From: SAR202 cluster bacterium
GTDB taxonomy: Bacteria; Chloroflexota; Dehalococcoidia; Lucifugimonadales; UBA3495
Assembly: GCA_013204585.1 (NCBI GenBank)
Contig: JABMNL010000028.1
Span: forward strand, 29,669-93,668
Length of the DNA: 64,000 nucleotides
Reading direction: 5' to 3'
Positions 11,115 to 28,644 of the stretch are shown in pieces. Position 1 is the first letter of the stretch. Each line of letters begins with the position of its first letter. A model generated the notes under the pieces. The model saw only the letters and a list, made by a program, of their open reading frames with translations, did not search any database and was not told the DNA's origin. A program made the translations under genes and the position numbers.

Positions 11115-11665
11115 TCCTAACGCTTGGGTTGATACTCCCGGCCTGACCGTCTTCTGCTACAACGTTCCTCTCCAATAATCCTCCAGTGCCCCAGAATGCC
11201 CCCTTCCCCAGTAGGCAAGAAATTTCAGTAACCCTTTCTTCCCAGCCTGCCTGTACAAAACCTTTTGTGTGAATTCCGTATGAATTTAACGCTTGATTAT
11301 GATAGCTGGTACGCACAAATGCGCGTATCAGCCTCAAAATGAGCAATCAACTCCGAATACCGTGATAGCTCACCAAATTTAGTGCCCATATCGGTATTGT
11401 TGCAATCGTGGCCATACGGGCACACGGGAGTATAATTTCAATACTAAAGCTCGTAGAATGACGGATGAATGACGGATTTGATGTTACGTTAACTAAATTC
11501 GCTAACAAGTTACGGGTTTCAAAAGCGGTATAGCGTCATGGTTTACATGTTACCGGCGTTATTACCCCATATATGTCCGCACGATGGATGGACGCAGCCG
11601 GATCTCATACCGGCGGCGTCGGACCTCACCCTGATTGCTGGATACGTAGATATATAAGAGGATCC

Positions 11666-13390
11666 ATGGTTAGTCGAGCAACCCCCTCATTTGAAGAAAG
11701 GGTGGGCCAAGTCCTATTAGAGGGCGGGTTCATCACACAAGAGCAGTTAGACGGCGCTAGAACGGCCAGCGAGGCAGAATCTTCCAGTCTTCTAGACGCC
11801 ATGGTTTCCCATGGCATGCTTGCCCAAGAAACCTTAGTAACTGTCCTCAGCTTCCAACTTCGCATCCCCGTTGTTGACCTCCGGCATGTTCAAGTTGACC
11901 CCGACGCAGTTGCCTTGGTACCGGAAGATTACGCCCGTGCGCACCGGGTAATGCCCACTGGATTCGATGCCGACGGCTCCCTTCGCATCGCCACCCGGAT
12001 GCCCAACGATTTCCAGCTATCCTCAGAGCTTTCATCCATTACAGGTCGCCAAACCAAGTTCGTTTTGGCCATCGGTGGAAAACTAGACGACCTGATTAAC
12101 CGGGTCTACAACTCGGCTCCGTCCGCGCCTGTAGCCGCGCCCCCTGGTAATAATGGCGGCGGCACTAGAACTATTTCTCCTGCGGCGGCCAAGGGCGAAG
12201 CCACCTTCTTGGGCCAGGACATTAGTACGTTACCCGCCATGCAAGCGGTGGACATGGTGACCTTGCAGGCAGTCAAAGCCAATGCTTCCGATATCCACAT
12301 GGTTCCCACCGCTGACTCGGCCAAGGTACTGTTCCGAATGGACGGCCAGCTACGACAAATGGTGGTACTGCCCCTAACCCTGCATGAAAGTATGGTTTCC
12401 AGAATCAAAGTCGAATCTGGAATGGACATCTCTGAAGACCGGCGTCCCCAGGACGGTGGATTCAGCTTGAAATTCGGCGAGCGCCGAGTGGAATTTCGTG
12501 TCGCTTCCATTGGGACCACCTGGGGCGAGATGATGGTAATTCGTGTTCTCGACCAGTCCGGCGGTCTCTTATCGCTTGAAGCATTGGGCATGGACCCCCA
12601 GAGCCTACAGGTATGGCGTTCCTTATTGGATTTGCCCTACGGTATGTTGCTGGTGTCTGGTCCTACCGGCTCAGGAAAGACCACCACCCTCTACGCCTCG
12701 GTTGCCGAACTAATCACATCCCGTGGCAACATCATGTCCGTCGAAGACCCCATTGAATACCGCATGGACGGGGTCAATCAGATCCAAGTAAACCGAGCGG
12801 CTGGAGTCGACTTCCCGGCGGGACTCAGGTCCATCATGCGCCTTGACCCCGACATTATCTTGGTCGGTGAGATACGGGACAAAGAAACAGCGACCACCGC
12901 CGTCAACGCCGCAATGACCGGCCACTTGGTTCTAGCTTCCATTCACAGCAACGATGCAGCATCATCCATCGTCCGCCTAATTGATTTAGGCGTGGAGCCA
13001 TTTCTGGCCGCTACCGGCGTTATTGGCTGCCTGGCCCAGCGCTTGGTACGCCAAGTATGCCCTCAGTGCAGCCAGCCTAAGGAAGCAACGGCAACCGAGG
13101 CGATTGCTTACGAGCAGGAGATGCAACAGCCAGTGCCACAGTTCATGTCCGGGCCGGGGTGCAATTTCTGCGGCGACTCTGGTTTCGTGGGGCGGAGCGG
13201 AGTGTTTGAAGTCCTCTCCGTAGACGAATCAATGCGGAGAAAGATTTCTCAGGGCTCCAGCGGCCCTGATATTCGTGAATCGGCGGTTAAGAGCGGAATG
13301 GTCACCATGCGCCGGGCCGGGATGCAAATGGCCCAAGCCGGAAAGACCACCCTGTCTGAAGTATTCCGTAGCGTCTTCTTCCTCGATTGA
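11666..13390 (+). CDS. pilB: Type IV pilus assembly ATPase (GspE/PilB family)
   Basis: Start chosen at ATG 11666 (AAGAGGA RBS). It has an N-terminal T2SSE_N-like domain, Walker A GPTGSGKTTT, Walker B DPDIILVGEIRD, His box GHLVLASIHSN and a tetracysteine CPQC...CNFC. Confidence 0.9.
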   Translation: MVSRATPSFEERVGQVLLEGGFITQEQLDGARTASEAESSSLLDAMVSHGMLAQETLVTVLSFQLRIPVVDLRHVQVDPDAVALVPEDYARAHRVMPTGFDADGSLRIATRMPNDFQLSSELSSITGRQTKFVLAIGGKLDDLINRVYNSAPSAPVAAPPGNNGGGTRTISPAAAKGEATFLGQDISTLPAMQAVDMVTLQAVKANASDIHMVPTADSAKVLFRMDGQLRQMVVLPLTLHESMVSRIKVESGMDISEDRRPQDGGFSLKFGERRVEFRVASIGTTWGEMMVIRVLDQSGGLLSLEALGMDPQSLQVWRSLLDLPYGMLLVSGPTGSGKTTTLYASVAELITSRGNIMSVEDPIEYRMDGVNQIQVNRAAGVDFPAGLRSIMRLDPDIILVGEIRDKETATTAVNAAMTGHLVLASIHSNDAASSIVRLIDLGVEPFLAATGVIGCLAQRLVRQVCPQCSQPKEATATEAIAYEQEMQQPVPQFMSGPGCNFCGDSGFVGRSGVFEVLSVDESMRRKISQGSSGPDIRESAVKSGMVTMRRAGMQMAQAGKTTLSEVFRSVFFLD

Positions 13391-13510
13391 TTGATGATAA
13401 AAACTCATCTGGGACATAGACTAGGCAGCGTGGCTGTCGTGCTGGCTTGACCACGGTGGGGATTGGGAAGACGATAGCCTTAAAGACACCAATAGCGCAG
13501 TTAGATTGCA

Positions 13511-14719
13511 ATGGTAGTTAGATACGTAGCATATACATGGCAAGGTGAAAAGGTTGAGGGCGTCTTGAACGTCGACCGGGAAGATGTAGCCCGGGAGATG
13601 CTTCAGAAAGACGACCTAATACCGTACGAAGTGGTACGAGTACGGCCAATCCCTTCTCTCTCACGTTTTGCTCCAATGCTGTTTCAACCTAAGCCCCAAG
13701 AAGTGATTGAATTCACCCGGGGTCTAGCGGCGTTGATTCGCTCCGGAATTCCCATACGCGAAGGACTGACCATTCTGCGAGGTCAGGGCGTTGGGTTGGG
13801 CATGAAAGAGATTGTGCGGCAGCTAATTGCTGCCATCGAGGACGGAAGCCGGTTGTCCGACGCCTGCGCTAGGCATCCTAGAGTGTTTTCCGGCTTCTAC
13901 ATAAGATTGTTGCGTGTGGGAGAAGCCACCGGAAGAATGCCCGAGTCGTTACAGCAACTTGCGGAAACCTTACTTAAGGGCAAGGCCATGCGGGACAAAG
14001 TTAAAGGCGCATTGGTCTACCCCGCCATCAGCATGGTTGTAGCCATTCTTGTCGCCGTTATTCTGTTGGTCTACTCTTTGCCCGCAATCGTTAACCTGCT
14101 TGCCGAGTTCGGCGGTGAACTGCCGTTGGCCACACGATTGTTAATTGAAGTTTCTGAATTCGTTCAGGCCTACAAGATGGTCATATTCATCGTATTAGCA
14201 ACCGTACTGGTCGGCAGTTGGCTGACTTCTAAGACTGTGCGTGGCCGCCGCGTAATGGACAGATATTTCCTAAAGTTTCCGATAATTGGCAGCGTGTTGA
14301 TGCAGAGTAACCTCTTCAACCTCACGTCCACTTTCGGAACATTACTACGTTCTGGTATCCCATCCATGGAAGCTCTAAGATTGTCAAAAGACAGCCTGGG
14401 AAATGTAATTCTGCGGGAACGGCTGGACGACATCATCAACGATGTGGAAGGTGGAACTCGATTGGGGTCTTCATTCCGCGAATATTGGCCTAGCCCACCT
14501 CTCCTCTCCCAAGGCATGATTACCGGCGAGGCAACCGGAAACTTGCCGGAAGCTCTCAACAACATGGCGGAATACTACGAGCAAGAAGCAACCAGGACTG
14601 TTAGTGGAGCTACCGAGTTGATTCAGCCGGCGGTCATCCTATTGGTCGCAGGACTGGTAGGTTTCGTGGCTATCGCCGTGGTGGGAGGAGTCTACTCCGC
14701 TCTTGATTCAATTGAATAA
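13511..14719 (+). CDS. pilC: Type IV pilus platform protein (GspF/PilC family)
   Basis: 402-aa ORF with two T2SSF-like repeats and three TM segments, immediately downstream of pilB. Confidence 0.85.
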   Translation: MVVRYVAYTWQGEKVEGVLNVDREDVAREMLQKDDLIPYEVVRVRPIPSLSRFAPMLFQPKPQEVIEFTRGLAALIRSGIPIREGLTILRGQGVGLGMKEIVRQLIAAIEDGSRLSDACARHPRVFSGFYIRLLRVGEATGRMPESLQQLAETLLKGKAMRDKVKGALVYPAISMVVAILVAVILLVYSLPAIVNLLAEFGGELPLATRLLIEVSEFVQAYKMVIFIVLATVLVGSWLTSKTVRGRRVMDRYFLKFPIIGSVLMQSNLFNLTSTFGTLLRSGIPSMEALRLSKDSLGNVILRERLDDIINDVEGGTRLGSSFREYWPSPPLLSQGMITGEATGNLPEALNNMAEYYEQEATRTVSGATELIQPAVILLVAGLVGFVAIAVVGGVYSALDSIE

Positions 14720-14883
14720 TCATCTGTATAGACGGCATAGCGGATAACCTGGGCATATCATCAATAATCGCCAAGTTTTGGAGCTTGACGGCCCAGAATA
14801 GTCTGGCACATTAATTGCGTTAGTCTGACGGTCAAGAGCTCTCTTGGGAGCCACTAGACCGAATCGTCAAAAAGGTCGGACCC

Positions 14884-15204
14884 GTGGCAGAAAATCAACC
14901 CAATGACTATCCCGTAGAACTGGAAGACACCTACGAGGACGAAGCCAACCAGAACCGGGACAAGTCGCGGAAGAGCAGAAATGCCTCCCGGGAACAGACC
15001 CGTTACTGGCGCAGAGTGCCCTCTGTTAACGTTCTTCCCGGCGAAAAGAAGCAGCTTCCCGCCAATTTCCTGATGCGTAGCGTGCTGGTTGTTGCCATCG
15101 GGTTGCTGGTATTGGTATCTGTGGCCAGGTACCTAGACTGGCACGACTTCGAGAAACGGGCTGAGACATCTTTGGTGTTATCTCAATCAGTCCAGGGAAT
15201 TTAG
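14884..15204 (+). CDS. PilN-like protein, N-terminal part (cytoplasmic tail plus single TM)
   Basis: 106-aa ORF (GTG start) with a charged N-terminus then TM LMRSVLVVAIGLLVLVSVARYL. It ends inside what looks like the coiled-coil start. The next frame continues from 15165. Confidence 0.4.
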   Translation: MAENQPNDYPVELEDTYEDEANQNRDKSRKSRNASREQTRYWRRVPSVNVLPGEKKQLPANFLMRSVLVVAIGLLVLVSVARYLDWHDFEKRAETSLVLSQSVQGI

Positions 15205-15251
15205 ACGCCCGAAAAAGTGAAATCGAGCCCCTTCAATCTCAAATTAACCTG

Positions 15252-15554
15252 TTGGCGTCGGAACTGGATTCAGCTCAGACGACCTACACTTTAGCAACTG
15301 CGGCGAACACCGATTGGTTCACCGCCATGAACGGCTTATTCGCCATCTCAGTAAGCGGCGTGGAGTTCCTATCAGTCACGGCTGATGAAGATGGCAAGGT
15401 AACCCTGGTCGGCATCGCGACTAGTCCCGATGCCATCTCATCCCTTCCCATCCAGTTAAGCCAATTAGCTGGCATCGTAAACCTACTGGGAATCCAATGG
15501 GATGCAGCAGTCACACCGCCAGCGTTTACCGCAAAGTTTCAGGTGGACCGATGA
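15252..15554 (+). CDS. PilN-like protein, C-terminal part (possible frameshifted continuation)
   Basis: The frame is open from 15165 and reads ...NLDARKSEIEPLQSQINLLASELDSAQ..., a coiled-coil plus beta-rich domain as in PilN periplasmic parts. The stop overlaps the next ATG. Confidence 0.4.
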   Translation: MASELDSAQTTYTLATAANTDWFTAMNGLFAISVSGVEFLSVTADEDGKVTLVGIATSPDAISSLPIQLSQLAGIVNLLGIQWDAAVTPPAFTAKFQVDR

Positions 15555-16120
15555 ACCGTCGATTCTCGTTAGAACAATTGCAATCCCTGCGTAAACCGGA
15601 ATCATTGCTGGTTCTCATCCTTTTGGTCGTCGTCGTTGCTTGGTACTACCTCGACGGGAAGGCCAGCGATGCCGATGCGGAGCTACTCTCCGTCGAAACG
15701 ACCCTTGCTGCCGCCCAAGATGACCTAAGGTATTGGACCAATAATTTCGACCAACTAACGCTCCAAGACGAATTAGCGGTCATAATTTCCGCTCCCAAAC
15801 CACCCACTCTGCCCACCCAATCCGAAGCCCTAGGGTTCAGGACCTCCCTGATGACCTACGCTTCGCAGCAACAACTGCCCTTAAGTTCATTAGAGGTCTT
15901 GGATATCACCCGTGAACTGGGCGATTCCCAGTATCCGGCTGTCCGCTACGTAATAGTCATCAGCGGAGAATTAAATGCACTGGTGGGGTCAATGCGTATC
16001 TTTGAGTCATTCTCAACAGCGTCGGTCCAGAGCATGGATTTCTTTCGCGCTGATCAAGGGCCAAACATTTGGGGGCTGAGCATCACCCTGGACGTTATTC
16101 ACCAGCCGGAGGAAACATAG
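15551..16120 (+). CDS. PilO-like pilus alignment protein
   Basis: Start at ATG 15551 (ATGA overlap with the previous stop). Short N-terminus, TM LLVLILLVVVVAWYY, coiled-coil, then a C-terminal domain. Position is between the PilN-like and PilM-like genes. Confidence 0.45.
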   Translation: MNRRFSLEQLQSLRKPESLLVLILLVVVVAWYYLDGKASDADAELLSVETTLAAAQDDLRYWTNNFDQLTLQDELAVIISAPKPPTLPTQSEALGFRTSLMTYASQQQLPLSSLEVLDITRELGDSQYPAVRYVIVISGELNALVGSMRIFESFSTASVQSMDFFRADQGPNIWGLSITLDVIHQPEET

Positions 16121-16124
16121 CAAA

Positions 16125-17048
16125 ATGGCCGACACTTATTCGTCCAAGGGAAAAAGGACTGCCTCAATATCCATTGAACACGGCTTGGTAAAGTTGATGG
16201 TCTCCAAAGGTCAGATTATCAACGACTACCGCGTGGTACTGGCCAACCCCCGTTTCTTCCGTGAAGGCCACATCAGCAACGCGTCCAGAGTCGCCAACCT
16301 GCTTGAAGATGTGCTACCCCAGATGAACGGCAAGTACAAACTCGCCACCGCTGTGGTTCCTGGGTTCCAAAACCGATTGCGCATTCTGGAATTCCCCAAG
16401 GGAACTGGGTTCGACCCTCGGAAAGTGATTACCCAAGAGGCAGCCCGCACAATGCACGTTACTCCAGAAAACTATTACATCACCTGGCACAGATTGCCAG
16501 ACAGTTTCGACCGGTCTCGCTGGCTGGTGTTGGCTGCGCTTCGCCGGGCCATCACATCGCTCATAGAAACCGCTAATAAGGCGGATATGCACATATCTGC
16601 CATGGAACTTCGTCCCTTCGCTCTGGCCAGAGCCATTAACCAACCTGAGGCCGTCATCACTTGGGCGGCGCCGGACGGTTGCGACGTGGTCATCGTTAAA
16701 AACTCTGTTCCCGTTGAGCACCAGAGCCTTTTCTGGGGCGCAGACTTGGTTGAAGATGCAGTCCTCATAGACCGGCTCACCGAGGTGACCTCCCGAACTC
16801 TAAACACATTCAGCGAAAGCTCTCCTGAAGGGCCTTTGCCCGACGATACTCCGTTATACATCTGCGGGTCGCCCATCAGTCGGCAACCGATTCTCCACGA
16901 CGACCAAAGAGGGTTCGCCATTACCCAGCAGATATGCCAGAGCCTGCGCCTGCCCAGAGGTGAGATAAATCTACCCATGAAATGCGGCGAAGATTTCCCT
17001 TCCAATGACCTTATCGTTAACGCTGGCCTTGCCCTTCGCGGCGTCTAA
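16125..17048 (+). CDS. PilM-like actin-fold pilus assembly protein
   Basis: 307-aa ORF. Its pattern resembles PilM (VVPGFQNRLRILEFP..., ANKADMHISAMELRPFALARA). The N-terminal phosphate-1 Asp appears replaced (SIEHG). Confidence 0.5.
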   Translation: MADTYSSKGKRTASISIEHGLVKLMVSKGQIINDYRVVLANPRFFREGHISNASRVANLLEDVLPQMNGKYKLATAVVPGFQNRLRILEFPKGTGFDPRKVITQEAARTMHVTPENYYITWHRLPDSFDRSRWLVLAALRRAITSLIETANKADMHISAMELRPFALARAINQPEAVITWAAPDGCDVVIVKNSVPVEHQSLFWGADLVEDAVLIDRLTEVTSRTLNTFSESSPEGPLPDDTPLYICGSPISRQPILHDDQRGFAITQQICQSLRLPRGEINLPMKCGEDFPSNDLIVNAGLALRGV

Positions 17049-17062
17049 ACAATAACCGATTT

Positions 17063-17866
17063 ATGTTGGGCATAATCGCCTTCTTCATTGGCGCATCCGT
17101 AGGTAGCTTCCTCAATGTAGCAGCCGACCGGGTGCCAGACGGTCGGTCTTTGATACGCCCCAAATCTTATTGTGAAAGTTGCGAGCGTTCGTTGGCGTAT
17201 ATCGACATGGTCCCAGTGCTCAGCTACCTCTGGCTGAGAGGGAAATGTCGCAACTGCAAGGCCAAAATTCCCCTTCGCGTCGCTGTGGTGGAGGCAGCCA
17301 CCGGAGCATTATTTTTGTCCGTCTACTTGCTCTATGGATTTGGACTGGACTTCGTGGTCGTCTCCGCTTGCCTAGCTCTGCTTGTTGTCGTCTCCATGAC
17401 CGACCTGGAACGCGGGCTGATTCTAGACGTGATGGTCTTTCCAGCCATAGTTCTGTTGCTGTTCATGGCCCCTTTTTGGACGGAAATTGGGTTCCCTAGA
17501 GGGTTCTTAGGCGATGAAACCTTAATCGCTTCGTTCGCTAATTCAACTCTGTCGGGGCTGGGGGCATTTCTCGCCTTTTTGATAGTCGCCATGATTAATC
17601 CGGCTGGCATGGGCGGTGGAGACGTCAAATTCGCCGCCGTTTTGGGGCTAATGGTGGGCTTCCCAGGAATCCTAATCTCGTTGTGGATTTCGGTGATTGG
17701 AGGCGGGCTCATTGCCATTACCCTGATATTGACTGGAAAGAAGAACCGCAAGGACACCATACCCTTCGGGCCTTTTATGGCCATCGGCACGGCTGCGGTT
17801 CTCATCGCCGGGCCGGACATCATTCACTGGTATCAAGATTTGGCAACTGCGGTCTCAGGCACATGA
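17063..17866 (+). CDS. pilD: Prepilin peptidase (A24 family)
   Basis: 267-aa polytopic ORF. It has an N-terminal FLNVAADRVP plus Cys pairs CESC...CRNC, and the catalytic region GMGGGDVKFAAVLG. Confidence 0.85.
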   Translation: MLGIIAFFIGASVGSFLNVAADRVPDGRSLIRPKSYCESCERSLAYIDMVPVLSYLWLRGKCRNCKAKIPLRVAVVEAATGALFLSVYLLYGFGLDFVVVSACLALLVVVSMTDLERGLILDVMVFPAIVLLLFMAPFWTEIGFPRGFLGDETLIASFANSTLSGLGAFLAFLIVAMINPAGMGGGDVKFAAVLGLMVGFPGILISLWISVIGGGLIAITLILTGKKNRKDTIPFGPFMAIGTAAVLIAGPDIIHWYQDLATAVSGT

Positions 17867-19152: not shown

Positions 19153-19835
19153 GTAACATCAGGGTGTTAGTAGTCGACGATCACGATCTCTTCCGGCGCG
19201 GACTTATTGAGGTCCTGCAAGAAGACCCGGACATGGAAGTAATCGGAGAGGCCCGTAACGGCAAAGAAGCAATTGAAATGGCCGGGGAATTAAGTCCCGA
19301 CCTAGTCTTCATGGACCTTAATATGCCTGGCCAGAACGGGATTGAGGCCACTGCCTTCATTACCCAGAAATGGCCCGATATGAAGGTTCTGGTCTTGACT
19401 GTCTCCGAAGAAGCTGGCGACTTATATCAGGCGTTAAGCGTCGGAGCCCGTGGCTATGTCCTAAAGATTTCTAGTCCAGCAGAGATATTGGATGCGCTGC
19501 GGCAAGTCCACCAAGGCTGGGTGGTAGTATCCCCCGCCATGGCACCCAGGTTCCTATCAGACCTGTCCCAGGCAACCGGAAATGCCGGCGGTGGCAGAGG
19601 GCAAGGCAGAGGCGGTAACAACGATGTGGTTTTGACTGTCCGCGAGCAAGAGATTCTGCGGCTTGTTGCCCGAGGTTTGTCCAATGCGGGAATCGCTGGA
19701 GAACTGATGGTCTCCGAGAATACAGTAAAAACCCATATCAAGAACATTTTGGGAAAGCTTCACATGAAGAACCGAAGCGAGGCTGCCAACTACGCCAACA
19801 GGCTGGGCATTACGCAATCCGATGGCTCTCCATAA
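19149..19835 (+). CDS. Response regulator, NarL/LuxR family
   Basis: ATGA overlap with the kinase stop. REC domain (VLVVDDHDLFRRG, DLVFMDLNMPG) and LuxR HTH (LTVREQEILRLVARGLSN...TVKTHIKNILGKL). The linker is unusually Gly/Arg-rich (GNAGGGRGQGRGGNN). Confidence 0.9.
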   Translation: MSNIRVLVVDDHDLFRRGLIEVLQEDPDMEVIGEARNGKEAIEMAGELSPDLVFMDLNMPGQNGIEATAFITQKWPDMKVLVLTVSEEAGDLYQALSVGARGYVLKISSPAEILDALRQVHQGWVVVSPAMAPRFLSDLSQATGNAGGGRGQGRGGNNDVVLTVREQEILRLVARGLSNAGIAGELMVSENTVKTHIKNILGKLHMKNRSEAANYANRLGITQSDGSP

Positions 19836-20891: not shown

Positions 20892-21587
20892 ATGGTACAA
20901 AGACTTAAAAGGGCAGTTTTCAACAACCAGCGTGGTTTCACACTTCTGGAGTTGCTCGCAGTCATGTCGATTATGGCCGTTCTCGCTGGCATCGTCACAA
21001 CTTCCGTTAGCGGAACAAGTGAAGACAGCCGCGACGCCCAGGCGATACAGGACTCAACCACTGTTGGCAGCGCCGCAGCCGATTATTTTTCAGACCAGGA
21101 CGGCGCGGAGATTATTACGCCTGAAGAAGTAGAAGTGTTAAGCCTTTTCCCGAACACTACTCAAGAGATTAGCACCCGGTGGCCTGAGGACTTCGTAACC
21201 AGCGTTTACCGGAACGTCTTACCTCCGGACAACGCAACCACAGTTACCGACATAGCCTTCTTAGACTCAGAAGGCGCAATCTTGACCGCCGTAGTGGCAG
21301 AAACCAACGAAGCAATTAACTTTACCGTGCCAGACCTATTGACCGGATTCACTGCCGTTGATTTCAATATTTTGATTGATCAGAACTACATGAGCTCTGT
21401 ACCCGACAGCTATAGCCAGAAAAGCGGGCTTTACGCCAACTACCTGTGGCTATTTGAAAAGGCTGACTCCGCTGGCAGCGCCGGAGAGTCCGTCTCCCGT
21501 AACGTGGCATTGTTCAAACTCATCGTAGTACAGAAGTTAGATGCAGGCACCGAACATGTATCCTTGGTCTACCAAAGAGTCCATTAA
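20892..21587 (+). CDS. Type IV pilin (prepilin-type N-terminal cleavage/methylation domain), candidate major pilin
   Basis: Class III signal peptide ...NNQRG|FTLLELLAVMSIMAVLAGIV with Glu at +5. GGGGAG RBS. Confidence 0.85.
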   Translation: MVQRLKRAVFNNQRGFTLLELLAVMSIMAVLAGIVTTSVSGTSEDSRDAQAIQDSTTVGSAAADYFSDQDGAEIITPEEVEVLSLFPNTTQEISTRWPEDFVTSVYRNVLPPDNATTVTDIAFLDSEGAILTAVVAETNEAINFTVPDLLTGFTAVDFNILIDQNYMSSVPDSYSQKSGLYANYLWLFEKADSAGSAGESVSRNVALFKLIVVQKLDAGTEHVSLVYQRVH

Positions 21588-21706
21588 AGGTCTCGGTAGC
21601 CCGCGACAAATGCGGGAATATGAGCAGGACTTACGTTCTCAATCTTTACCGCTGAATTAGAGACCAGGCGAAATAATCCGAAAGGAAGATGGATGGGAGG
21701 CATACA

Positions 21707-22489
21707 ATGAACCTACTAAAGCAAATCCTAAAAGGGCAACGAGGCTTCACACTGGTGGAGATGGTCGTGGTCGTCGCCATCATGGGCGTAATGGCCGCGG
21801 TAGCCGTCCCCGTAGTGACGAACAACCTCAATAAATCTAAGGAACGTGCCTACGCCCAGGACGTTGCCATGATTCAGACGTCGATAGACAGCTATTTCAC
21901 GGCTGCCGATAACCCGCGTCACCTCGGACTCCGCCAGTACCCAATCAGGGCAAAAAGCGACTCCGGCACGCCTATCAAATGGTCCGATTTTGCTTCTGGT
22001 AACGTGACAGCGATTAACCCGATGCTTGGCACCCAGGGAGGTCAGCCTTTCTGGAGAGACAACGCAAACGGCGAGCGCGACGTACTAAAGACCAACGGCG
22101 CCGCTGAATTGCTTAGTCCGGTCAAAGACATTGATATCAACTCCGCAGCCCCAGGCACCGATAGCTGGTATGCCGGGAAAGTTGACCTACAGGGCACGAT
22201 GTACGCAGTAGACACCCGTGGGTACTTCATCGACTTCGATGTACTGATTAAGGCAGGCCTGCTTAAGGCCGCTCCCGAGTCCGCTTCGACCGACAACGGC
22301 GGAGTGTCCACCGGCGGCGGATCCTATGGTTGGTTCGTGAACGCCAACGGATCGGTAGACTCCATTCTGTCGGTGTTCCCATACAACGGTCAGCTGCTAA
22401 CCGACGGAATCGTCGGTAGCGCCATCACCGATGCATCGGGAGTAAAGGCCTCCGACCTGAGGGGCTTCGTGGCAGGGATTTACCCGTAA
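21707..22489 (+). CDS. Type IV pilin-like protein (prepilin-type N-terminus)
   Basis: Start at ATG 21707 (GGGAGG RBS). Leader MNLLKQILKGQRG|FTLVEMVVVVAIMGVMAAV. Confidence 0.8.
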   Translation: MNLLKQILKGQRGFTLVEMVVVVAIMGVMAAVAVPVVTNNLNKSKERAYAQDVAMIQTSIDSYFTAADNPRHLGLRQYPIRAKSDSGTPIKWSDFASGNVTAINPMLGTQGGQPFWRDNANGERDVLKTNGAAELLSPVKDIDINSAAPGTDSWYAGKVDLQGTMYAVDTRGYFIDFDVLIKAGLLKAAPESASTDNGGVSTGGGSYGWFVNANGSVDSILSVFPYNGQLLTDGIVGSAITDASGVKASDLRGFVAGIYP

Positions 22490-22657: not shown

Positions 22658-23161
22658 ATGCTCCCACAACAAATGAAAACTCCCGAACATGCCGGGTCGC
22701 CGAAAACGGCTGGCTGTAGTCTTTTGACTACGGCTATCATGCGTTGTGGGGCTTGGCTAGGCTCCCTGAGACGCTCATTAAGCCTCCAGCGTGGGTTTTC
22801 TCTCCTCGAGTCCATTGCTGCAATCGGCGTAATCGGAATTGCAGTTGTGGGCAGCGTCAACTTATTGAACAGCACGGTGCAAACGTCACACGACACCCAG
22901 GGCGACCTTGGATTAATCCAGTTGCTCAGGGCACAAGTAGAGACAATAGAAAACGTCCCCTATAACGATGATGTTTCGAAGTATCCACAAATCTTAAATA
23001 TTCCGGATAACGTATTCCTTTCAATTGAATCGTTCGATCCTGGGATCACCTATGTCTCCAACGGCGTCGCCCTTGGTCAGGTGATTCAACAGATTGAAGT
23101 CACCGCGAAGAAGGACGAAGAAAAGGCCAGCATGATCTTCTACAAGATTAAGAAACGTTGA
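22658..23161 (+). CDS. Minor pilin-like protein (prepilin-type N-terminus)
   Basis: Motif LQRG|FSLLESIAAIGVIGIAVVG. The start is uncertain (22625, 22658 with AAGGAG RBS, or 22739) and the leader would be unusually long. Confidence 0.65.
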   Translation: MLPQQMKTPEHAGSPKTAGCSLLTTAIMRCGAWLGSLRRSLSLQRGFSLLESIAAIGVIGIAVVGSVNLLNSTVQTSHDTQGDLGLIQLLRAQVETIENVPYNDDVSKYPQILNIPDNVFLSIESFDPGITYVSNGVALGQVIQQIEVTAKKDEEKASMIFYKIKKR

Positions 23162-23196: not shown

Positions 23197-23793
23197 ATGA
23201 AAATCTTTAAGTCGCAACTAGGGAACTCACTGATTGAATTAACGGTGGCAATGGCCATTGCGGGCGTAATGTCTGTGCCCTTGACTGGGATAATTGCCGC
23301 ACAGCTGCGAGTGCCGCTACGGATTTCAAACGAGGTAAGCACGGCCAGCAAGCTCCAGTCTTCGACGATTGTTCTGCTCAACGATGCCGTTTCCGCCCAG
23401 TCATTCACCCCTGGCGAAAGCCCAGAGTACGGAACATTTAAGTGGCTAGAGTTCGCCGGCACCGTCCCTATTGCCGCCCAAGCGCGATACTTCTGGCAAG
23501 AAGAGGCTGTGTGGCGGGTATTGACCCGTCAAGGCTCTGCTTCGCCACCATTCCTGGTCCTTACAGACATTAAAACCCCTACCGACGTTGTATTCACACA
23601 CACACCGTCAGAATGGGTCTTCGACAACGACACCAAGAGCTGGAATTACGTTAGAGGACGGATTGCGGTCGACTTGGACGTCGATAGGGAATCGACTTCA
23701 GATTTCAAGAAGTTGCTAAGCCGTGGTGTATTAGTCGCCGACTTTAGGCCAGCGCTGGAACGGCCAGCGCCATTCCCGAGTCCGCTGCGCTGA
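23197..23793 (+). CDS. Minor pilin-like protein (prepilin-type N-terminus)
   Basis: Leader MKIFKSQLG|NSLIELTVAMAIAGVMSV with Glu at +5. 198 aa. Confidence 0.7.
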   Translation: MKIFKSQLGNSLIELTVAMAIAGVMSVPLTGIIAAQLRVPLRISNEVSTASKLQSSTIVLLNDAVSAQSFTPGESPEYGTFKWLEFAGTVPIAAQARYFWQEEAVWRVLTRQGSASPPFLVLTDIKTPTDVVFTHTPSEWVFDNDTKSWNYVRGRIAVDLDVDRESTSDFKKLLSRGVLVADFRPALERPAPFPSPLR

Positions 23794-23908
23794 AAAACCG
23801 AAACGGCGCGAGTCTTAGGATTCTCGGCGTATATGACTCCAAACATTTTAAAGAAACTAAAAGGGAGCGGATGACCGCTCTTAACGCTTAACCTACCTTG
23901 AAAAAACT

Positions 23909-26900
23909 TTGAAAAAACTTTTCACATTAATCGCCAATAGCCAATCAGGTGCCATTCTCCCAATGGCAATTCTGTCGTCTCTAATTGGCATTTTGGTGAT
24001 TGTTCCGGTGGCGGTCACGGTTGCTACCACCGCCCGCAGCCAAGGCGACCTGTTGGACATAACCAACGAGGCCTATCTTGCTGAGGCGGGCGTCGCGGTA
24101 GTGATTGAAGACCTAATTCGCGGCGCCGATGGCGACCCACCCAACCCGTTCAATTACGTACCGCCGGTAGTAAACATCGGCGGCAAGGTACCCTACACAA
24201 CCGTCGAGTCTCTGAAAGACGATGCCGCACCAACCATAACCAGCCGACGGCTACTGAATTACGGCAAAGCTGGAGACCCCACAGTCACCGTAGGCACATT
24301 ATCCGTCGACCCAGATAAAGACGACCACTCGTACGATCATTCGTACGAAGGTGACGGTTACGGCTACGATGACGACTACGAAAAAAAGAAGTACCAATAC
24401 CCATTCGTCTTCGATGTGAAAGGTGGAGGCTTAGCGGACGGCACTGCAACTGCAGGTGTTCTTCCTGACGGTCTCTCGGATGTAGGCATCGGCTACAACG
24501 CCGACCCACAGAGGGTGGAATTTACCATTGTCAGCGAGATTGTGGCATTCGACCCGACCCTAACCGGCGAAGTCCAAATTGACCTCCAAGCATGGGAAGA
24601 ATCGGCTCAGCTAGAAGTTTACGTCTATGAATTAGATTCAGACGCGGACGACAAGGCCATCGGCAAATTACCGGACGAACCTGATGAGACCCGTGTTATT
24701 GACCACGACCACGACAAAAAGAAGTCGGACCATCTCCACGACGCCCTCCATGACGACCACTCTGAAAATGACGCTACAGAAGGGCACGTAGACCATTTTG
24801 GCGGCGACCACCACGGCCACGTAGCTGGCATCGGCGGCCCGCATCCCCATTTGACCCATAATGACCATCACTACGGCCAGGTGGTCGGTGACGACGATGA
24901 CGATGCGCATCATAGTCACCACGGGTATCACGAATATGAAGACGACGACCTTCTTCACCACCACGCGGCGACCGGCGATATTCTGTTGTTACATGAAGAA
25001 GACCATCCTCACCACAAAGGGCATGGCCATAAGCACCACAAGCACGAGGGAGACCATTACCATCACGGGTCAACGGACGTAACCGTTACCCTGAGCGAGG
25101 GCGCTCTGGAGTACCTCAATCAAAATAAGTACGTAAAGATTAAGGTCGTGGCCACGGTCTACTCAGACCCAGAGCATCATCACCTTGCCCACACAAATGA
25201 TGATAGCCAGGTCGAAATCAAAGGCAACAGTTTCAAGCACGACCACTATCACCATTGGCTTCGAAAAGACCGGCCAAACTTTGAACTCCATGTGGGAGGG
25301 GTCAACTTTGCGTTGGTCGGTCCGGTAACGGTCGATACTCGGTTCATGGCCGGACCCATTGTTTTGAACCGTGGCTCTCTAGTGTCCGGCGGCCCCGTCG
25401 ATACGAAAGAAGACGATTTGTCGTATTACATATTCGAAAGCGACGACGAAAGGGTCGAATTCGAGTTGACCAGTAATAAATTCGACCTGAAAAATCTAGA
25501 CACCCTCGTAGTGCCGTTCATTGTTCGGACCCACCAAATCAACTTGCCCGGTGGCGATAAATACCCCCATGAGCATGACCATGATTATGATGGAAAACAT
25601 GACGACGACGGTCACGACCACAAAGACGATCACAAAGACGTAGAAGTAGAAATTAGGGTGTACAACCCCAATGATCCCAAGGCCGACAAATATGACGGCT
25701 TCAGCAAGATTGACCGGTTCAAGCAGAAGATTGAGGCGAGTTACGTAGACCGATACATGGCCTTCGAGATTGGCCAAGACGGCATTGACTACGTCAACAG
25801 CTTGGCAGACAAACAAGTCCGGGTGCGGTTCACATTCAAAGGCTCTAAAGAATTCCGGGTTGAACTCGACCGGCTAACGTTCTTTGCGACATCCACCGAG
25901 TCACGGAATACTCTGCTGGCTGAAGCATCGCACCAATATATTGACCCTGCGACCAGCGATGATAATTTCAAGGTTGTACCGGCGGGAAGCAGCTATGTCC
26001 TCCAATTGAACAACGTCCGTTCCGGGCTGATGAGCGTCAACTGGGCGTTCCTGCCGTTGCCCATAACTGGCGCAAAGCATAAAGACAAGCATAACGAAAT
26101 ATCAATCAAGGTCTTCCGTGGCACGGTACTAGACCACGGTGATGTAATTCCGGCTGGCCGATATTTCGGTGACCCCAAAGACAAAGACGGCAACGACCTA
26201 GTCGAAAAAGCCCATATCCACCCTGGGCACGGCGAGACCTTCGTAAGGACGGGTTTGTTTGAGGTCCAACCCGGAATTTACACCATTGTGTTCGCCAACG
26301 ACGTGGACGACCACGACTACTATGATAATGACGACGATGACCGCGACGGCAAATATAAGGGTCCTCCGCCGTCGGTGTACACCAAAAAATTCTCAGACAG
26401 CGGCAGGACCGATAGCACATGGGTATTTGGTTCCTCTTACCGAGACTACCTAATCCAGAGCAAGTTCGGTCAGGTCGCTGTGAAAACGGTGGTTCGCCAG
26501 GTGCCAGGCCCCATCGCAGCTCTGCCATGGACGCCAGAAAAGGCTTCTCTATCACCACATCAGGTGTTCGTCCAGTCATGGCATGAACCGGTTGGCATAG
26601 CAGAAATAATTGTCGACAAGGATAGCGACTACATCTGGGACACGATTGACGGCGCGTGGGAAATAGATGCGTTCGAAAAAGGTACGTTCGTTGACGAAAG
26701 CGACATAACTTCGAAACGGTTCACCGACCAGCACCGCAAGGGCACTACCTACGGACAGGTTGTGGAGTCGGGAGGCCTAATCGTCAACGTTGTCGACGTC
26801 AATTCCGACGACCTGGGAGTCCTTATTACAGTAACCGGCCGGGGCACAAACCAGGCCACATTGAGCGTCTGTGGAAGCACTGTGTATTTGACCAACGGCG

Positions 26901-28366
26901 ACGCGCTGATAGCCACCTGCGGATCCACTGAAGTCGATGTCCATAGTGGACCAATCGAGATTGTGTTGGCTGGCGATATCGTCGCAACGATTCCAACCGA
27001 CGGTGCAATCAAAGTAACCAAAGTCGACAGTAAAAAAGTCAATGTGAAGAACACCGACGATGACGAATTAATCGTAATTACTAGCAAAAAAGGAACAGTT
27101 GAGTTATTGGCGGGCACAGAAGTAATTGTGGTTGACGGCGAGGAATTGCCTTCCCCGACGGCCACTCCGATTGGCACGGCCACGCCGGTTCCGACACCTA
27201 CTCCAACAACTACGCCGTTCCCTACTGCTACACCAATTGCGGCGGCGGACACAGCAACTCCGGTGCCTGGTTCTACGGCTACGCCAGTTCCGGCTACCGC
27301 AACCCCGGTGCCACCGACGGCTACACCAGTTCCCGGTACGGCTACACCAGTTCCGGCTACGGCTACACCAGTTCCGGCTACGGCTACACCGGTTCCGGCT
27401 ACGGCCACACCAGTTCCGGCTACGGCCACGCCAGTTCCGGCTACGGCCACGCCAGTTCCGGCTACGGCCACGCCAGTTCCGGCTACAGCCACGCCAGTTC
27501 CGGCTACGGCTACGCCAGTTCCGGCTACGGCTACGGCGACCCCGACACCGTCGCCAAGCAGTTCGCTGGACTCGTCAAGTTGGACCTCGTTGGACCACAC
27601 GCCTAGCAATGTTACGGGTGGTGGCGCCCTAACCACCGATGGCACGAACATATTTGCGCTGAGGGGAGACGGTAAAGACGATTTCTGGCGTTACAGCGTA
27701 GCCAACGACTCGTGGAGTTCTCTAGCTAATACGCCGAGCAACGTTGATTCAGGCAGCGCCATGACCTACGCTGGCGGGTATATCTACACCCTACGGGGAG
27801 ACGGTAAAAACGATTTCTGGCGCTACAACATAAGCGCCAATTCCTGGCAGAACTTGGACGACGCCCCTGAAACAGTGGACTGGGGCGGCTCCCTAACCTA
27901 TGACGGATCGAACACAATCTATGCGTTCCGCGGCACGGGCACCAATGACTTCTGGAGTTACTCCATCTCCGCCGGAACGTGGAGCACGAAAGCAAACGCA
28001 CCGGCAAGTGTCAAAGCTGGAGGCGCACTTCTGTACGACAACGGGTTTGTCTACGCCCTACGTGGCGACAATAACCAGAACTTCTGGCGGTACACGGTAT
28101 CCAGCAATAGCTGGACATCAATGGCATCAACACCGTCAGACATCTACCAGGGAGGCTCGTTGGCCTACTTTGGCGATGGCTCAATCTACGTCTTACGTGG
28201 AGACCGTCAGGATGATTTCTGGCGTTACAGCATCAGTAGCAATAGTTTCACCACCCTATCGAACACTCCTGGCAATATCGACGACGGTGGTAGCATGATT
28301 GCCGTAAACGGCGCTCTGTACGCCCTTAGAGGCGACAACAAGAATGACTTCTACGGCCTTGAATAG
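23909..28366 (+). CDS. Giant pilus-associated protein: PilX-like N-terminal anchor, His/Asp-rich tracts, Pro/Thr repeat linker, C-terminal six-bladed Kelch-like propeller
   Basis: 1485-aa ORF with TTG start, the only start in the open frame from 23885. The N-terminal hydrophobic segment is SGAILPMAILSSLIGILVIVPVAV. H/D-rich tracts lie at 24701-25069, 25562-25640 and 26300-26360. There are about 12 ATPVPAT repeats and six ~45-aa repeats with GG...IY.LRGD...DFWRY...W. Confidence 0.8.
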   Translation: MKKLFTLIANSQSGAILPMAILSSLIGILVIVPVAVTVATTARSQGDLLDITNEAYLAEAGVAVVIEDLIRGADGDPPNPFNYVPPVVNIGGKVPYTTVESLKDDAAPTITSRRLLNYGKAGDPTVTVGTLSVDPDKDDHSYDHSYEGDGYGYDDDYEKKKYQYPFVFDVKGGGLADGTATAGVLPDGLSDVGIGYNADPQRVEFTIVSEIVAFDPTLTGEVQIDLQAWEESAQLEVYVYELDSDADDKAIGKLPDEPDETRVIDHDHDKKKSDHLHDALHDDHSENDATEGHVDHFGGDHHGHVAGIGGPHPHLTHNDHHYGQVVGDDDDDAHHSHHGYHEYEDDDLLHHHAATGDILLLHEEDHPHHKGHGHKHHKHEGDHYHHGSTDVTVTLSEGALEYLNQNKYVKIKVVATVYSDPEHHHLAHTNDDSQVEIKGNSFKHDHYHHWLRKDRPNFELHVGGVNFALVGPVTVDTRFMAGPIVLNRGSLVSGGPVDTKEDDLSYYIFESDDERVEFELTSNKFDLKNLDTLVVPFIVRTHQINLPGGDKYPHEHDHDYDGKHDDDGHDHKDDHKDVEVEIRVYNPNDPKADKYDGFSKIDRFKQKIEASYVDRYMAFEIGQDGIDYVNSLADKQVRVRFTFKGSKEFRVELDRLTFFATSTESRNTLLAEASHQYIDPATSDDNFKVVPAGSSYVLQLNNVRSGLMSVNWAFLPLPITGAKHKDKHNEISIKVFRGTVLDHGDVIPAGRYFGDPKDKDGNDLVEKAHIHPGHGETFVRTGLFEVQPGIYTIVFANDVDDHDYYDNDDDDRDGKYKGPPPSVYTKKFSDSGRTDSTWVFGSSYRDYLIQSKFGQVAVKTVVRQVPGPIAALPWTPEKASLSPHQVFVQSWHEPVGIAEIIVDKDSDYIWDTIDGAWEIDAFEKGTFVDESDITSKRFTDQHRKGTTYGQVVESGGLIVNVVDVNSDDLGVLITVTGRGTNQATLSVCGSTVYLTNGDALIATCGSTEVDVHSGPIEIVLAGDIVATIPTDGAIKVTKVDSKKVNVKNTDDDELIVITSKKGTVELLAGTEVIVVDGEELPSPTATPIGTATPVPTPTPTTTPFPTATPIAAADTATPVPGSTATPVPATATPVPPTATPVPGTATPVPATATPVPATATPVPATATPVPATATPVPATATPVPATATPVPATATPVPATATPVPATATATPTPSPSSSLDSSSWTSLDHTPSNVTGGGALTTDGTNIFALRGDGKDDFWRYSVANDSWSSLANTPSNVDSGSAMTYAGGYIYTLRGDGKNDFWRYNISANSWQNLDDAPETVDWGGSLTYDGSNTIYAFRGTGTNDFWSYSISAGTWSTKANAPASVKAGGALLYDNGFVYALRGDNNQNFWRYTVSSNSWTSMASTPSDIYQGGSLAYFGDGSIYVLRGDRQDDFWRYSISSNSFTTLSNTPGNIDDGGSMIAVNGALYALRGDNKNDFYGLE
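27270..27545 (+). repeat. Tandem 21-bp repeat array (ACGGCYACRCCAGTTCCGGCT) inside the giant gene
   Basis: About a dozen near-identical in-frame units encoding (T)ATPVPA. Units differ only at one or two synonymous or third positions. Confidence 0.9.
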
Positions 28367-28605
28367 AACCTCGTAGATTGGAAACTGAAATTAAAGGAAT
28401 TTTGACCTAGATGTGGAGCAGGACAGATAACGGAAAAGAAAAGCGGCTAACCGTGGTCGCTTTGCGTCTGTCGACGGAGATCCAACCAGAACACGCCCTG
28501 GCTGAAACAGGGGAACATGCTGACGGTGGGCCGTCGGAAAACGACGAAGATCAGATTGTTCCGGACACTCTTTCTGCCTGACACACATCACTGGTAACTA
28601 GTAAC

Positions 28606-28644
28606 AAAAATAATGGCGGGTTAAAACCCGCCATTATTTTTTAT
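28606..28644. terminator. Bidirectional rho-independent terminator
   Basis: AAAAATAATGGCGGG-TTAAAA-CCCGCCATTATTTTTT: a perfect 11-bp stem flanked by A- and T-runs, between convergent genes. Confidence 0.85.

What the first reader, a model, noticed from the sequence alone, without database searches (positions are those of the whole stretch)
23909..28366. Giant 1485-aa pilus-locus protein with a new architecture (PilX-like anchor, unknown core, His/Asp tracts, PT linker, Kelch-like propeller)
Seen in sequence: a single 4.46-kb ORF follows four prepilin genes on the same strand and is closed by a strong bidirectional terminator.

Reading the translation gives four parts:
- An N-terminal hydrophobic segment SGAILPMAILSSLIGILVIVPVAV without the G|FTLxE prepilin cleavage motif. 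This is reminiscent of PilX_N-type anchors.
- About 1000 aa that I cannot assign to any family, interrupted by three His/Asp-rich tracts.
- A Pro/Thr linker of about 12 ATPVPAT units.
- Six ~45-aa Kelch-like repeats.

Established knowledge: in Pseudomonas and Neisseria T4aP systems, minor pilins (FimU/PilV/PilW/PilX) prime the fibre. They present the large PilY1/PilC adhesin, whose C-terminal domain is a beta-propeller.

Inference: this protein may be a fused PilX-anchor plus PilY1-analogous tip adhesin of a type not described for monoderm or Chloroflexota pili. It is my best candidate for the novel element in this window.
Basis: partly seen in the sequence, partly recalled or inferred. Interest (0 to 1): 0.85.

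Follow-up and report, generated by a model that had tools for sequence, protein, structure and literature searches.

The report
Giant modular pilus-tip cap protein
This 1485-residue gene most likely encodes an oversized "cap" subunit for the tip of a type IV pilus in a Chloroflexota bacterium; it carries swappable binding modules, including a Kelch propeller, and is a new, unannotated variant of the already known "modular pilin" idea.

Summary
One intact ORF (23909-28366, +, 1485 aa) follows four Glu5-containing prepilin genes and precedes a strong hairpin terminator.

The roughly 1000 unassigned residues resolve into these parts:
- a short basic leader ending in a family-conserved Gly;
- a hydrophobic N-terminus without Glu5, predicted as a 55-residue helix;
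- two homologous beta-sandwich modules carrying disordered His/Asp loops;
- a jelly-roll core, which defines the family;
- a widespread domain of about 170 aa with no Pfam model;
- a Pro/Thr linker encoded by 12.5 copies of a 21-bp repeat;
- a six-bladed Kelch propeller.

Relatives occur only in Chloroflexota/Dehalococcoidia. Most are about 300 aa (helix plus jelly-roll), and they nearly always follow GspI-like and GspJ-like minor pilin genes. That is the GspK/PilX/ComGG "cap" position. Larger relatives swap the C-terminal modules (Kelch x1-3, LamG, CBM-like). The same Kelch module is also fused to J-type prepilins and to another K-position protein.

Best reading: a tip-displayed modular adhesin. 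It is a functional analogue of PilY1, not a homologue. PilX_N, GspK and PilY1 membership was tested and not met. Adhesion, processing and ligand are inferred. Novelty: new variant of a known kind.

The parts
23909..23950 (+). Leader MKKLFTLIANSQSG: basic, ending in the family-conserved Gly14 (putative prepilin-peptidase site G|AILPM, no Glu at +5)
   Evidence: Translation. Gly is conserved in all full-length relatives and no member has Glu5. The TTG start is supported by homologue N-termini.
23951..24118 (+). Hydrophobic N-terminus continuing as a long alpha1-type helix (residues ~15-70) with the conserved motif Y-x-AEAG...DL-x-RGADG
   Evidence: AF2 predicts helix 16-70 and the equivalent helix 4-64 in the small homologue. 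Invariant columns.
24119..24265 (+). First conserved strands after the helix (residues 71-119), shared with the ~300-aa family members
   Evidence: tblastn matches to query residues 12-~100; alignment A4; AF2 strands 96-119.
24386..25348 (+). Beta-sandwich module A (residues ~160-480), interrupted by disordered His/Asp loops
   Evidence: AF2 strands 201-264 and 386-478. hhalign to module B gives probability 96.5%, E 9.5e-10.
24701..25063 (+). Main His/Asp-rich tract (residues 265-385; 29% His, 18% Asp), a lineage-variable insertion flanked by invariant His residues
   Evidence: Composition. Absent in P0002-P0005 and larger in P0006-P0008. pLDDT <50.
25349..25912 (+). Beta-sandwich module B (residues 481-668), a tandem duplicate of module A; carries the His/Asp loop at residues 549-577 (25553-25639)
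   Evidence: hhalign; AF2; composition. The same module type occurs in J-like pilins of L006 and L008.
25913..26596 (+). Family-defining jelly-roll core (residues 669-896), shared with all small relatives (NWAF, GIYTIVF, TW.F...DY, VRQVPG motifs)
   Evidence: tblastn matches to residues 668-894; invariant columns. The AF2 model of the small member (pLDDT 85) matches GOLD, collagen-binding and CBM6 sandwiches only.
26609..27133 (+). 'Domain D' (residues ~901-1075): begins with a DxDxDxxxDxxDG motif and is beta-rich; a widespread module without a Pfam model
   Evidence: Profile positions 829-998 match hundreds of unrelated multidomain proteins. AF2 pLDDT 80-92.
27143..27553 (+). Pro/Thr/Ala linker (residues ~1079-1215), including about 12 ATPVPAT units
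   Evidence: Translation. TRF finds a 21-bp period x 12.5 copies at 27273-27535. Composition: 29% P, 31% T, 23% A.
27572..28363 (+). Six-bladed Kelch beta-propeller (residues 1222-1485), the putative ligand-binding effector module
   Evidence: Pfam Kelch_6 at 1.7e-13 and Kelch_3 at 4.3e-13; blades listed. The module profile hits solved Kelch propellers 8pjs (6e-13) and KLHL22 (1.6e-8).
28606..28641 (.). Bidirectional intrinsic terminator hairpin shared with the convergent 5'-3' exonuclease gene
   Evidence: 16-bp stem, -24.9 kcal/mol, z -7.2.
22739..23161 (+). GspI/PilV/ComGE-like minor pilin (RG|FSLLE), orthologous to the ~135-aa gene of the conserved I-J-K cassette
23197..23793 (+). GspJ/PilW-like minor pilin (LG|NSLIE), orthologous to the gene directly upstream of K-like genes in related loci
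20892..22489 (+). Two larger prepilins (231 aa GFTLLE; 266 aa GFTLVE), candidate major pilin and H-type pilin
11573..17866 (+). Pilus machinery: PilB-type ATPase with MshEN domain, PilC platform protein, small PilN/O-like ORFs, PilM-like protein, A24 prepilin peptidase

Best explanation
The gene encodes the Glu5-less "cap" subunit of the minor-pilin tip complex of a Chloroflexota type IV pilus. This is the position held by GspK, PilX/PilK and ComGG in other systems. Here the subunit has been enlarged into a modular, tip-displayed binding protein.

**Proposed mechanism**
1. The short leader is removed after Gly14 by the locus-encoded A24 prepilin peptidase (inferred).
2. The 55-residue alpha1 helix docks with the I-like and J-like minor pilins encoded just upstream. 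Together they prime the fibre and end up at its tip (inferred from gene order and from the known role of Glu5-less subunits).
3. The rest of the protein projects outward: the jelly-roll core, two CBM-like sandwiches with His/Asp loops, domain D, a ~135-residue Pro/Thr spacer and a six-bladed Kelch propeller. This part binds an external ligand, probably a glycan or a surface. The His/Asp tracts possibly add metal-dependent or mineral binding (inferred, low confidence).

In function it therefore combines what PilX-type cap pilins and PilY1-type adhesins do in diderm systems, but it is homologous to neither by the tests run here.
For: **Shown**
- Intact ORF in a complete pilus locus.
- Family restricted to Chloroflexota/Dehalococcoidia MAGs.
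- Small (~300 aa) and giant members share the N-terminal helix and jelly-roll core.
- In 11 of 13 loci the gene directly follows orthologous I-like and J-like prepilin genes.
- All members have a basic leader ending in Gly and none has Glu5, whereas the four upstream pilins all do.
- AF2 predicts an N-terminal helix of 55-61 residues.
- NCBI names one family member a PilX N-terminal domain protein, and PilX_N is the commonest sub-threshold Pfam match.

**Module shuffling, as expected of effector modules**
- Relatives carry one, two or three Kelch propellers, LamG, or CBM-like repeats. Some lack domain D or the His/Asp tracts.
- The same Kelch module is fused to a K-position protein in another full T4P locus (P0050, L014).
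- It is also fused to a J-type prepilin that is followed by a small K-like gene (P0053, L015).
- The Kelch fold is supported by Pfam and by solved homologues.
Against: - Pfam N_methyl, PilX_N, T2SSK and Neisseria_PilC are not reached.
- Foldseek finds no pilin, GspK or PilX match for the core, only generic jelly-rolls with E >= 1e-3.
- One small homologue is an orphan without neighbouring pilins (L007).
- In L001 the giant gene survives although the adjacent machinery block is gone.
- Several related loci are IS-disrupted.
- There is no experimental evidence for processing, pilus incorporation or binding, and the ligand is unknown.
- The giant model is only moderately confident overall (pLDDT 68, pTM 0.61).
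Confidence: 0.65

Rival explanations
1. It is a membrane-anchored (signal-anchor) cell-surface protein that is never incorporated into the fibre. It would be co-transcribed with the pilins and either act as part of the assembly platform or serve as a cell-body adhesin, held away from the envelope by the Pro/Thr spacer.
For: - No canonical GFxxxE motif and no N_methyl hit.
- The globular core is not a pilin fold.
- There is an orphan homologue in L007.
- The giant gene is retained without adjacent machinery in L001.
Against: - A conserved Gly ends a short basic leader, followed by a pilin-length alpha1 helix.
- The position after I-like and J-like minor pilins is fixed.
- The same Kelch module is fused to a bona fide GFTMVE prepilin.
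- The Pro/Thr spacer is distal, not next to the anchor.
Confidence: 0.17
2. It is the tip subunit of a short pseudopilus, in a Com-like DNA-uptake or T2SS-like secretion system rather than an adhesive pilus. The large ectodomain would capture DNA or a secreted substrate.
For: - The I-J-K gene order is shared by T2SS and Com systems (PMC10191384).
- No PilT retraction ATPase was seen in the locus.
- ComZ-type large tip proteins bind DNA (discussed in PMC8179133).
Against: - The locus has PilM-like and PilN/O-like genes and a PilB with an MshEN domain, which are typical of T4aP-like pili.
- The related locus L014 does contain a PilT-like ATPase.
- Kelch, LamG and CBM-like modules point to glycan or surface binding rather than DNA.
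- No DNA-binding domain was detected.
Confidence: 0.1
3. It is primarily a metal-binding or enzymatic protein. The His/Asp tracts would sequester Ni, Zn, Cu or Fe, or the Kelch domain would act as a mutarotase- or galactose-oxidase-like enzyme, and the pilus association would be incidental.
For: - 68 His and 157 Asp residues, with invariant His flanking the tracts.
- Weak NCBIfam similarity to mutarotase/NanM families, E 5e-5 to 2e-3 and far below the cut-offs.
Against: - The tracts are absent or tiny in close relatives (P0002-P0005, P0179) and are predicted to be disordered loops.
- The NCBIfam scores of 17-23 bits fall far short of cut-offs of 100-416.
- Kelch is replaced by non-enzymatic lectin-like modules in relatives.
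Confidence: 0.05

Closest known systems
GspK / PilX (P. aeruginosa) / PilK / ComGG: the Glu5-less cap subunit of the minor-pilin tip complex
   Same: - Last gene after I-type and J-type minor pilins.
- Leader ending in Gly and no Glu5.
- Long hydrophobic alpha1 helix.
- Larger than ordinary pilins because of an extra domain, as GspK has its alpha-domain.
- Presumed tip location.
   Different: - No significant PilX_N or T2SSK HMM match.
- The globular part is a jelly-roll sandwich, not a pilin alpha-beta roll with an inserted alpha-domain.
- 5-10 times larger, with six or more extra modules.
- Restricted to Chloroflexota.
Modular type IV pilins (S. sanguinis PilB-vWA and PilC-lectin; CofB; ComZ), Raynaud et al. 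2021 (PMC8179133)
   Same: - A pilin-type N-terminal carrier fused to effector modules that are not specific to pili.
- The modules are swapped between relatives.
- Predicted tip exposure and adhesion.
   Different: - Those proteins have canonical IPR012902 signals with Glu5 and a true pilin module.
- The largest example cited is 860 aa.
- Here the carrier is a Glu5-less K-type protein of 1485 aa (up to 1649 aa in relatives), with His/Asp tracts and a long Pro/Thr spacer.
PilY1 / PilC tip adhesin of T4aP (IPR008707 beta-propeller)
   Same: A large protein encoded next to the minor pilins, with a C-terminal beta-propeller and variable additional modules. It is thought to be presented at the tip by the minor pilins.
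   Different: - PilY1 is not a pilin and has no alpha1 anchor.
- I recall its propeller as a distinct seven-bladed PilC-type fold; this was not tested here.
- The protein here shows no Neisseria_PilC HMM hit, and its propeller is a six-bladed Kelch type.
- Here anchor and adhesin are one polypeptide.
~435-aa pilin-Kelch fusion proteins of Chloroflexota (P0050, P0053) found here
   Same: - Same Kelch propeller subtype, 45-54% identity.
- Same K or J position in pilin operons.
- Same phylum.
   Different: These are minimal versions, a helix or pilin fused directly to Kelch. They lack the jelly-roll core, the duplicated sandwiches, domain D, the His/Asp tracts and the Pro/Thr spacer.

Membership tests
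Type IV pilin (class III signal peptide, IPR012902 / PF07963 N_methyl) | Short basic leader ending in Gly, immediately before a ~20-residue hydrophobic stretch | tested here: met
   QSG|AILPMAILSSLIGILVIVPVAV. The Gly is conserved in all full-length giant and small relatives and is >=90% conserved as G8 in alignment A5.
Type IV pilin (class III signal peptide, IPR012902 / PF07963 N_methyl) | Glu at position +5 and a significant N_methyl / TIGR02532 HMM match | tested here: not met
   There is no N_methyl or TIGR02532 hit for the giant protein or its N-terminal 120 aa. No family member has Glu5.
Type IV pilin (class III signal peptide, IPR012902 / PF07963 N_methyl) | N-terminal alpha1 helix of about 50 residues | tested here: met
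   AF2 predicts helix 16-70 in the window protein and helix 4-64 in small member P0017, with pLDDT >90 there.
Type IV pilin (class III signal peptide, IPR012902 / PF07963 N_methyl) | Globular alpha-beta-roll pilin head | tested here: not met
   Foldseek against the PDB returns no pilin. The best matches are GOLD, ColH collagen-binding and CBM6 jelly-rolls, at E 1.5e-3 to 5e-2. The giant model gives no hit at E <= 1e-3.
Type IV pilin (class III signal peptide, IPR012902 / PF07963 N_methyl) | Cleavage and N-methylation by the prepilin peptidase; polymerisation into the fibre | not testable with these tools
   This needs biochemistry. An A24 peptidase gene is present at 17063-17866.
GspK / PilX / PilK / ComGG cap minor pilin | Encoded last, after I-type and J-type minor pilins | tested here: met
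   True for the window and for 10 further loci. The I-like and J-like genes are orthologous across loci. Exceptions are L007 (orphan) and L004 (truncated).
GspK / PilX / PilK / ComGG cap minor pilin | Lacks the conserved Glu5 | tested here: met
   The criterion comes from PMC10191384.
GspK / PilX / PilK / ComGG cap minor pilin | Sequence membership: Pfam PilX_N (PF14341) or T2SSK at the gathering score | tested here: not met
   No hit for the giant protein. Among the small members, 6 of 37 match PilX_N, with a best E of 0.025, below the cut-off of 25.5 bits. One member is nevertheless named a PilX_N protein by NCBI.
GspK / PilX / PilK / ComGG cap minor pilin | Forms a heterotrimer with the I and J subunits at the filament tip | not tested
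   This would need AF2-multimer or experiments.
PilY1 / PilC adhesin | C-terminal PilC/PilY1 beta-propeller (PF05567 / IPR008707) | tested here: not met
   There is no Neisseria_PilC hit at E <= 1. The propeller is Kelch-type.
Kelch beta-propeller | Kelch repeat HMMs above the curated cut-offs, with six tandem ~45-aa repeats | tested here: met
   Scores against cut-offs: Kelch_6 50.5 bits (25.3), Kelch_3 49.5 (22), Kelch_1 32.1 (20.1), Kelch_4 30.1 (21.6). The six blades are listed.
Kelch beta-propeller | Homology to solved Kelch propellers | tested here: met
   Profile A6 hits 8pjs at E 6.1e-13 and the KLHL22 Kelch domain at 1.6e-8.
Modular pilins sensu Raynaud et al. 2021 | N-terminal pilin carrier plus one or more modules not specific to T4P biology, with modules varying between relatives | tested here: inconclusive
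   The architecture and the module swapping are met. The operational criterion used in that paper, an IPR012902 match, is not met.

The most novel reading that the evidence does not exclude
Chloroflexota pili use a previously unrecognised family of cap proteins. In this family a Glu5-less alpha1 helix is joined to a jelly-roll head that is not a pilin fold. This replaces both the PilX/GspK cap and the PilY1 adhesin of diderm systems and serves as a platform for exchangeable effector modules. In this lineage the His/Asp-rich loops would give the pilus tip metal-dependent or mineral-surface binding, a function not known for type IV pili.
Probability: 0.2. Interest if true: 0.7.

Novelty: new variant of a known kind. 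Interest (0 to 1): 0.5.

Why it matters
- Type IV pili of Chloroflexota, including the abundant and mostly uncultured Dehalococcoidia, are almost unstudied.
- This family gives a concrete, sequence-defined candidate for what those pili present at their tips.
- It shows that effector modules (Kelch, LamG, CBM-like) are exchanged among J-type and K-type tip subunits.
- It extends the modular-pilin principle to a Glu5-less cap protein about twice the size of the largest example cited so far.
- It defines at least two unannotated domains that could become new family models: the jelly-roll core and the widespread domain D.
- If the His/Asp tracts bind metals or minerals, this would link pili to surface colonisation in subsurface habitats.

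Tried and rejected
- **Family scans of the giant protein and its N-terminal 120 aa** (Pfam, NCBIfam). Only Kelch was found. There was no PilX_N, T2SSK, N_methyl or Neisseria_PilC hit.
- **Sequence search of the PDB** with the protein and with the small-family profile. Nothing was significant: a geopilin N-terminus at E 0.28 and internalin K at E 0.022.
- **Foldseek of the 1120-residue model and of the small-member model against the PDB.** No pilin or GspK match appeared, only generic beta-sandwiches at marginal E-values. A GspK-like fold could therefore not be claimed.
- **The consensus terminator scan** missed the real hairpin. Direct folding confirmed it.
- **The 56-aa ORF between the stop codon and the terminator** (28411-28581) is not conserved in related loci and was dismissed as a gene.
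- **An ordinary cleaved Sec signal** was rejected. The hydrophobic stretch runs straight into a conserved 55-residue helix, and no signal-peptidase I site pattern is conserved.
- **Enzymatic mutarotase membership** was rejected because scores are far below the cut-offs.
- **Literature searches** found no description of Kelch-bearing pilins or of Chloroflexota minor pilins.

Full report
**1. Observation**

The window holds one uninterrupted ORF at 23909-28366 (+), 1485 aa from a TTG start. A gene caller used the internal ATG at 23963, giving 1467 aa (P0001). Full-length relatives conserve the extra N-terminal residues (VKQIFNTFTNDQSGAILPMAIL, MNRVLDILLARQEGAVLSLAIL; L002 MKQIFNIATKSQSGAILPMAIL), so the TTG start is the better one.

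Four same-strand genes upstream are prepilins with Glu5: GFTLLE, GFTLVE, GFSLLE and G|NSLIE. Further upstream lie a PilB-type ATPase with an MshEN domain, PilC, a PilM-like gene and an A24 prepilin peptidase. Downstream, 240 nt after the stop codon, is a 16-bp hairpin flanked by A- and U-runs (-24.9 kcal/mol, z -7.2). It is shared with a convergent 5'-3' exonuclease gene.

- the hydrophobic N-terminus;
- a large unassigned middle with His/Asp tracts (265-385, 421-452 and 549-577, plus Asp-rich 135-160 and 799-812);
- a Pro/Thr linker encoded by 12.5 copies of a 21-bp repeat;
- six Kelch repeats that pass the Pfam cut-offs.

**2. Anatomy**

Homologues are rare. Eight clusters were found among 5.8 billion proteins by word-seeded search. 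An exhaustive profile search gave about 90 at E <= 1e-30. All named sources are Chloroflexota/Dehalococcoidia MAGs.

A genome scan showed that most relatives are small, 273-347 aa. They match only residues ~12-100 and ~668-894 of the giant protein. The family core is therefore an N-terminal helix plus a C-terminal beta domain, and the giant protein carries insertions and extensions.

AF2 results:
- **Small member.** pLDDT 85, a 61-residue helix followed by a beta-sandwich.
- **Residues 1-1120 of the window protein.** pLDDT 68, pTM 0.61. The model has a 55-residue helix (16-70) and well-predicted beta modules. The His/Asp tracts are disordered.

Profile-profile comparison shows that residues ~160-480 and 481-668 are tandem copies of one sandwich module (probability 96.5%, E 9.5e-10). 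The same module type occurs in the enlarged J-like pilins of L006 and L008.

Residues ~901-1075 ("domain D") begin with a DxDxDxxxDxxDG motif. They match hundreds of unrelated multidomain extracellular proteins and have no Pfam model.

The His/Asp tracts are lineage-variable loop insertions. They are absent in P0002-P0005 and P0179 and larger in P0006-P0008 and P0171. About eight flanking His residues are invariant among the eight closest relatives.

**3. Why a pilus-tip cap**

Every family member has a short basic leader ending in Gly, followed by about 22 hydrophobic residues. None of about 45 members has Glu at +5. [quoted passage not shown]

In the window and in 10 further loci, the gene directly follows a ~135-aa I-like pilin and a J-like pilin. 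These are orthologous across loci: win_J against L010_J gives E 2e-14, and win_I against L010_I gives E 1.5e-8.

Exceptions are:
- an orphan copy (L007);
- a 5'-truncated copy (L004);
- IS-damaged loci (L001, L002).

NCBI names one small member a "PilX N-terminal domain-containing protein", and PilX_N is the most frequent sub-threshold Pfam match (6 of 37, best E 0.025). By sequence, however, membership in PilX_N, T2SSK and N_methyl is not met. By structure the head is a jelly-roll (GOLD, collagen-binding and CBM6-like, E >= 1.5e-3) rather than a pilin or GspK fold.

The protein therefore works like a K-type cap subunit by position and N-terminal logic, but I do not file it as a member of those families.

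**4. Why an effector-bearing adhesin**

The C-terminal modules are exchanged between relatives:
- **P0006:** two Kelch propellers.
- **P0191:** LamG plus three Kelch propellers.
- **P0171:** two CBM-like repeats instead of Kelch.
- **P0190:** LamG.
- **P0179:** Kelch, without domain D or His/Asp tracts.

A search with the Kelch module alone found 249 close relatives. Most are ~435-aa proteins in which the same propeller is fused directly to a pilin-type N-terminus.

- P0050 sits in the K position of a complete T4P locus: PilB, PilC, I, J, K-Kelch, PilM, A24 peptidase, PilT and a pilin.
- P0053 is a canonical GFTMVE J-type prepilin fused to Kelch, followed by a small K-like gene.
- P0073 and P0088 carry an archaeal-flagellin-type N-terminus.

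The Kelch profile hits solved Kelch propellers: 8pjs at 6e-13 and KLHL22 at 1.6e-8.

This is the "modular pilin" logic of Raynaud et al. 2021 (PMC8179133): a carrier for tip presentation fused to varied effector modules. That paper draws an explicit parallel to PilY1. Its dataset lists one IPR012902-IPR006652 architecture; I read IPR006652 as a Kelch repeat from my own knowledge.

The ligand is unknown. Kelch, LamG and CBM-like modules suggest glycans or surfaces. The His/Asp tracts suggest metal-dependent binding. Both points are inference.

**5. Comparison and novelty**

- **Closest in logic:** GspK/PilX/ComGG (cap position, no Glu5) and the modular pilins PilB, PilC, CofB and ComZ.
- **Closest in role:** PilY1. 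There is no homology to it: no PF05567 hit, and the propeller is a six-bladed Kelch type.

What is new:
- a Chloroflexota-restricted, unannotated family whose head is a jelly-roll;
- extreme size (1485-1649 aa, against 860 aa for the largest example cited);
- duplicated sandwiches with His/Asp loops;
- recurrent use of one Kelch subtype on J-type and K-type tip subunits.

The literature searches found no description of any of this. I rate it a new variant of a known kind, with interest about 0.5. A pilus specialist would find it a neat and testable extension rather than a surprise.

**6. Limits**

- Processing, incorporation into the fibre, tip location and binding are all inferred.
- The heterotrimer with the I and J subunits was not modelled.
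- Genomic context was inspected for 13 loci of the core family plus 3 loci of Kelch-module proteins, not for all relatives.

Noticed in passing
window 26609-27133 (protein residues ~901-1075): A ~170-aa beta-rich domain beginning with a DxDxDxxxDxxDG motif has no Pfam model. It matches hundreds of unrelated multidomain extracellular proteins, which also carry RCC1, PKD, DUF11, sortilin/BNR or other propeller domains. It is a candidate new domain family.
   Followed up: partly
P0050/L014 6001-7320; P0053/L015 6001-7374; P0073; P0088/L016 6001-7311: The same Kelch propeller subtype is fused directly to other filament-subunit N-termini. P0050 is a K-position protein in a full T4P locus. P0053 is a canonical J-type prepilin. 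P0073 and P0088 have archaeal-flagellin-type (PF01917) N-termini in Dehalococcoidia-type MAGs.
   Followed up: partly
L002 8099-9917 and 12838-16115; L001 8184-9901; L004 10137-13346: Related loci are decaying. In L002 an IS21 element splits the giant gene, leaving a Kelch remnant ORF at 15471-16115, and a DDE_3 IS splits the J-like pilin. In L001 an IS truncates the J-like pilin and the whole machinery block is missing, yet the 1649-aa gene is intact. L004 holds a 5'-truncated copy.
   Followed up: partly
window 17683-19835: A histidine kinase and LuxR-type response regulator pair lies inside the pilus locus, between the prepilin peptidase and the pilin genes. The same arrangement appears in L006. 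It may regulate pilin expression.
   Followed up: no
window 19875-20630 (-): A divergent 251-aa ORF with a signal-like N-terminus, a Pro/Thr-rich stretch and two repeated ~90-aa units. It has no Pfam match.
   Followed up: no
window 23898-23919: An 11-bp direct repeat, TTGAAAAAACT x2, spans the TTG start codon of the giant gene. No obvious Shine-Dalgarno sequence precedes either the TTG or the internal ATG at 23963.
   Followed up: no
window 28411-28581 (+): A 56-aa acidic ORF lies between the stop codon of the giant gene and the terminator. It is not conserved in related loci and is probably not a gene.
   Followed up: yes
L006 9185-10750; L008 6482-7540; L003 8633-9973: J-like minor pilins are themselves enlarged (352-521 aa) in some lineages. 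In L006 and L008 this is by the same sandwich module that is duplicated in the giant protein, so module grafting affects several tip subunits. The L003 copy was not compared.
   Followed up: partly
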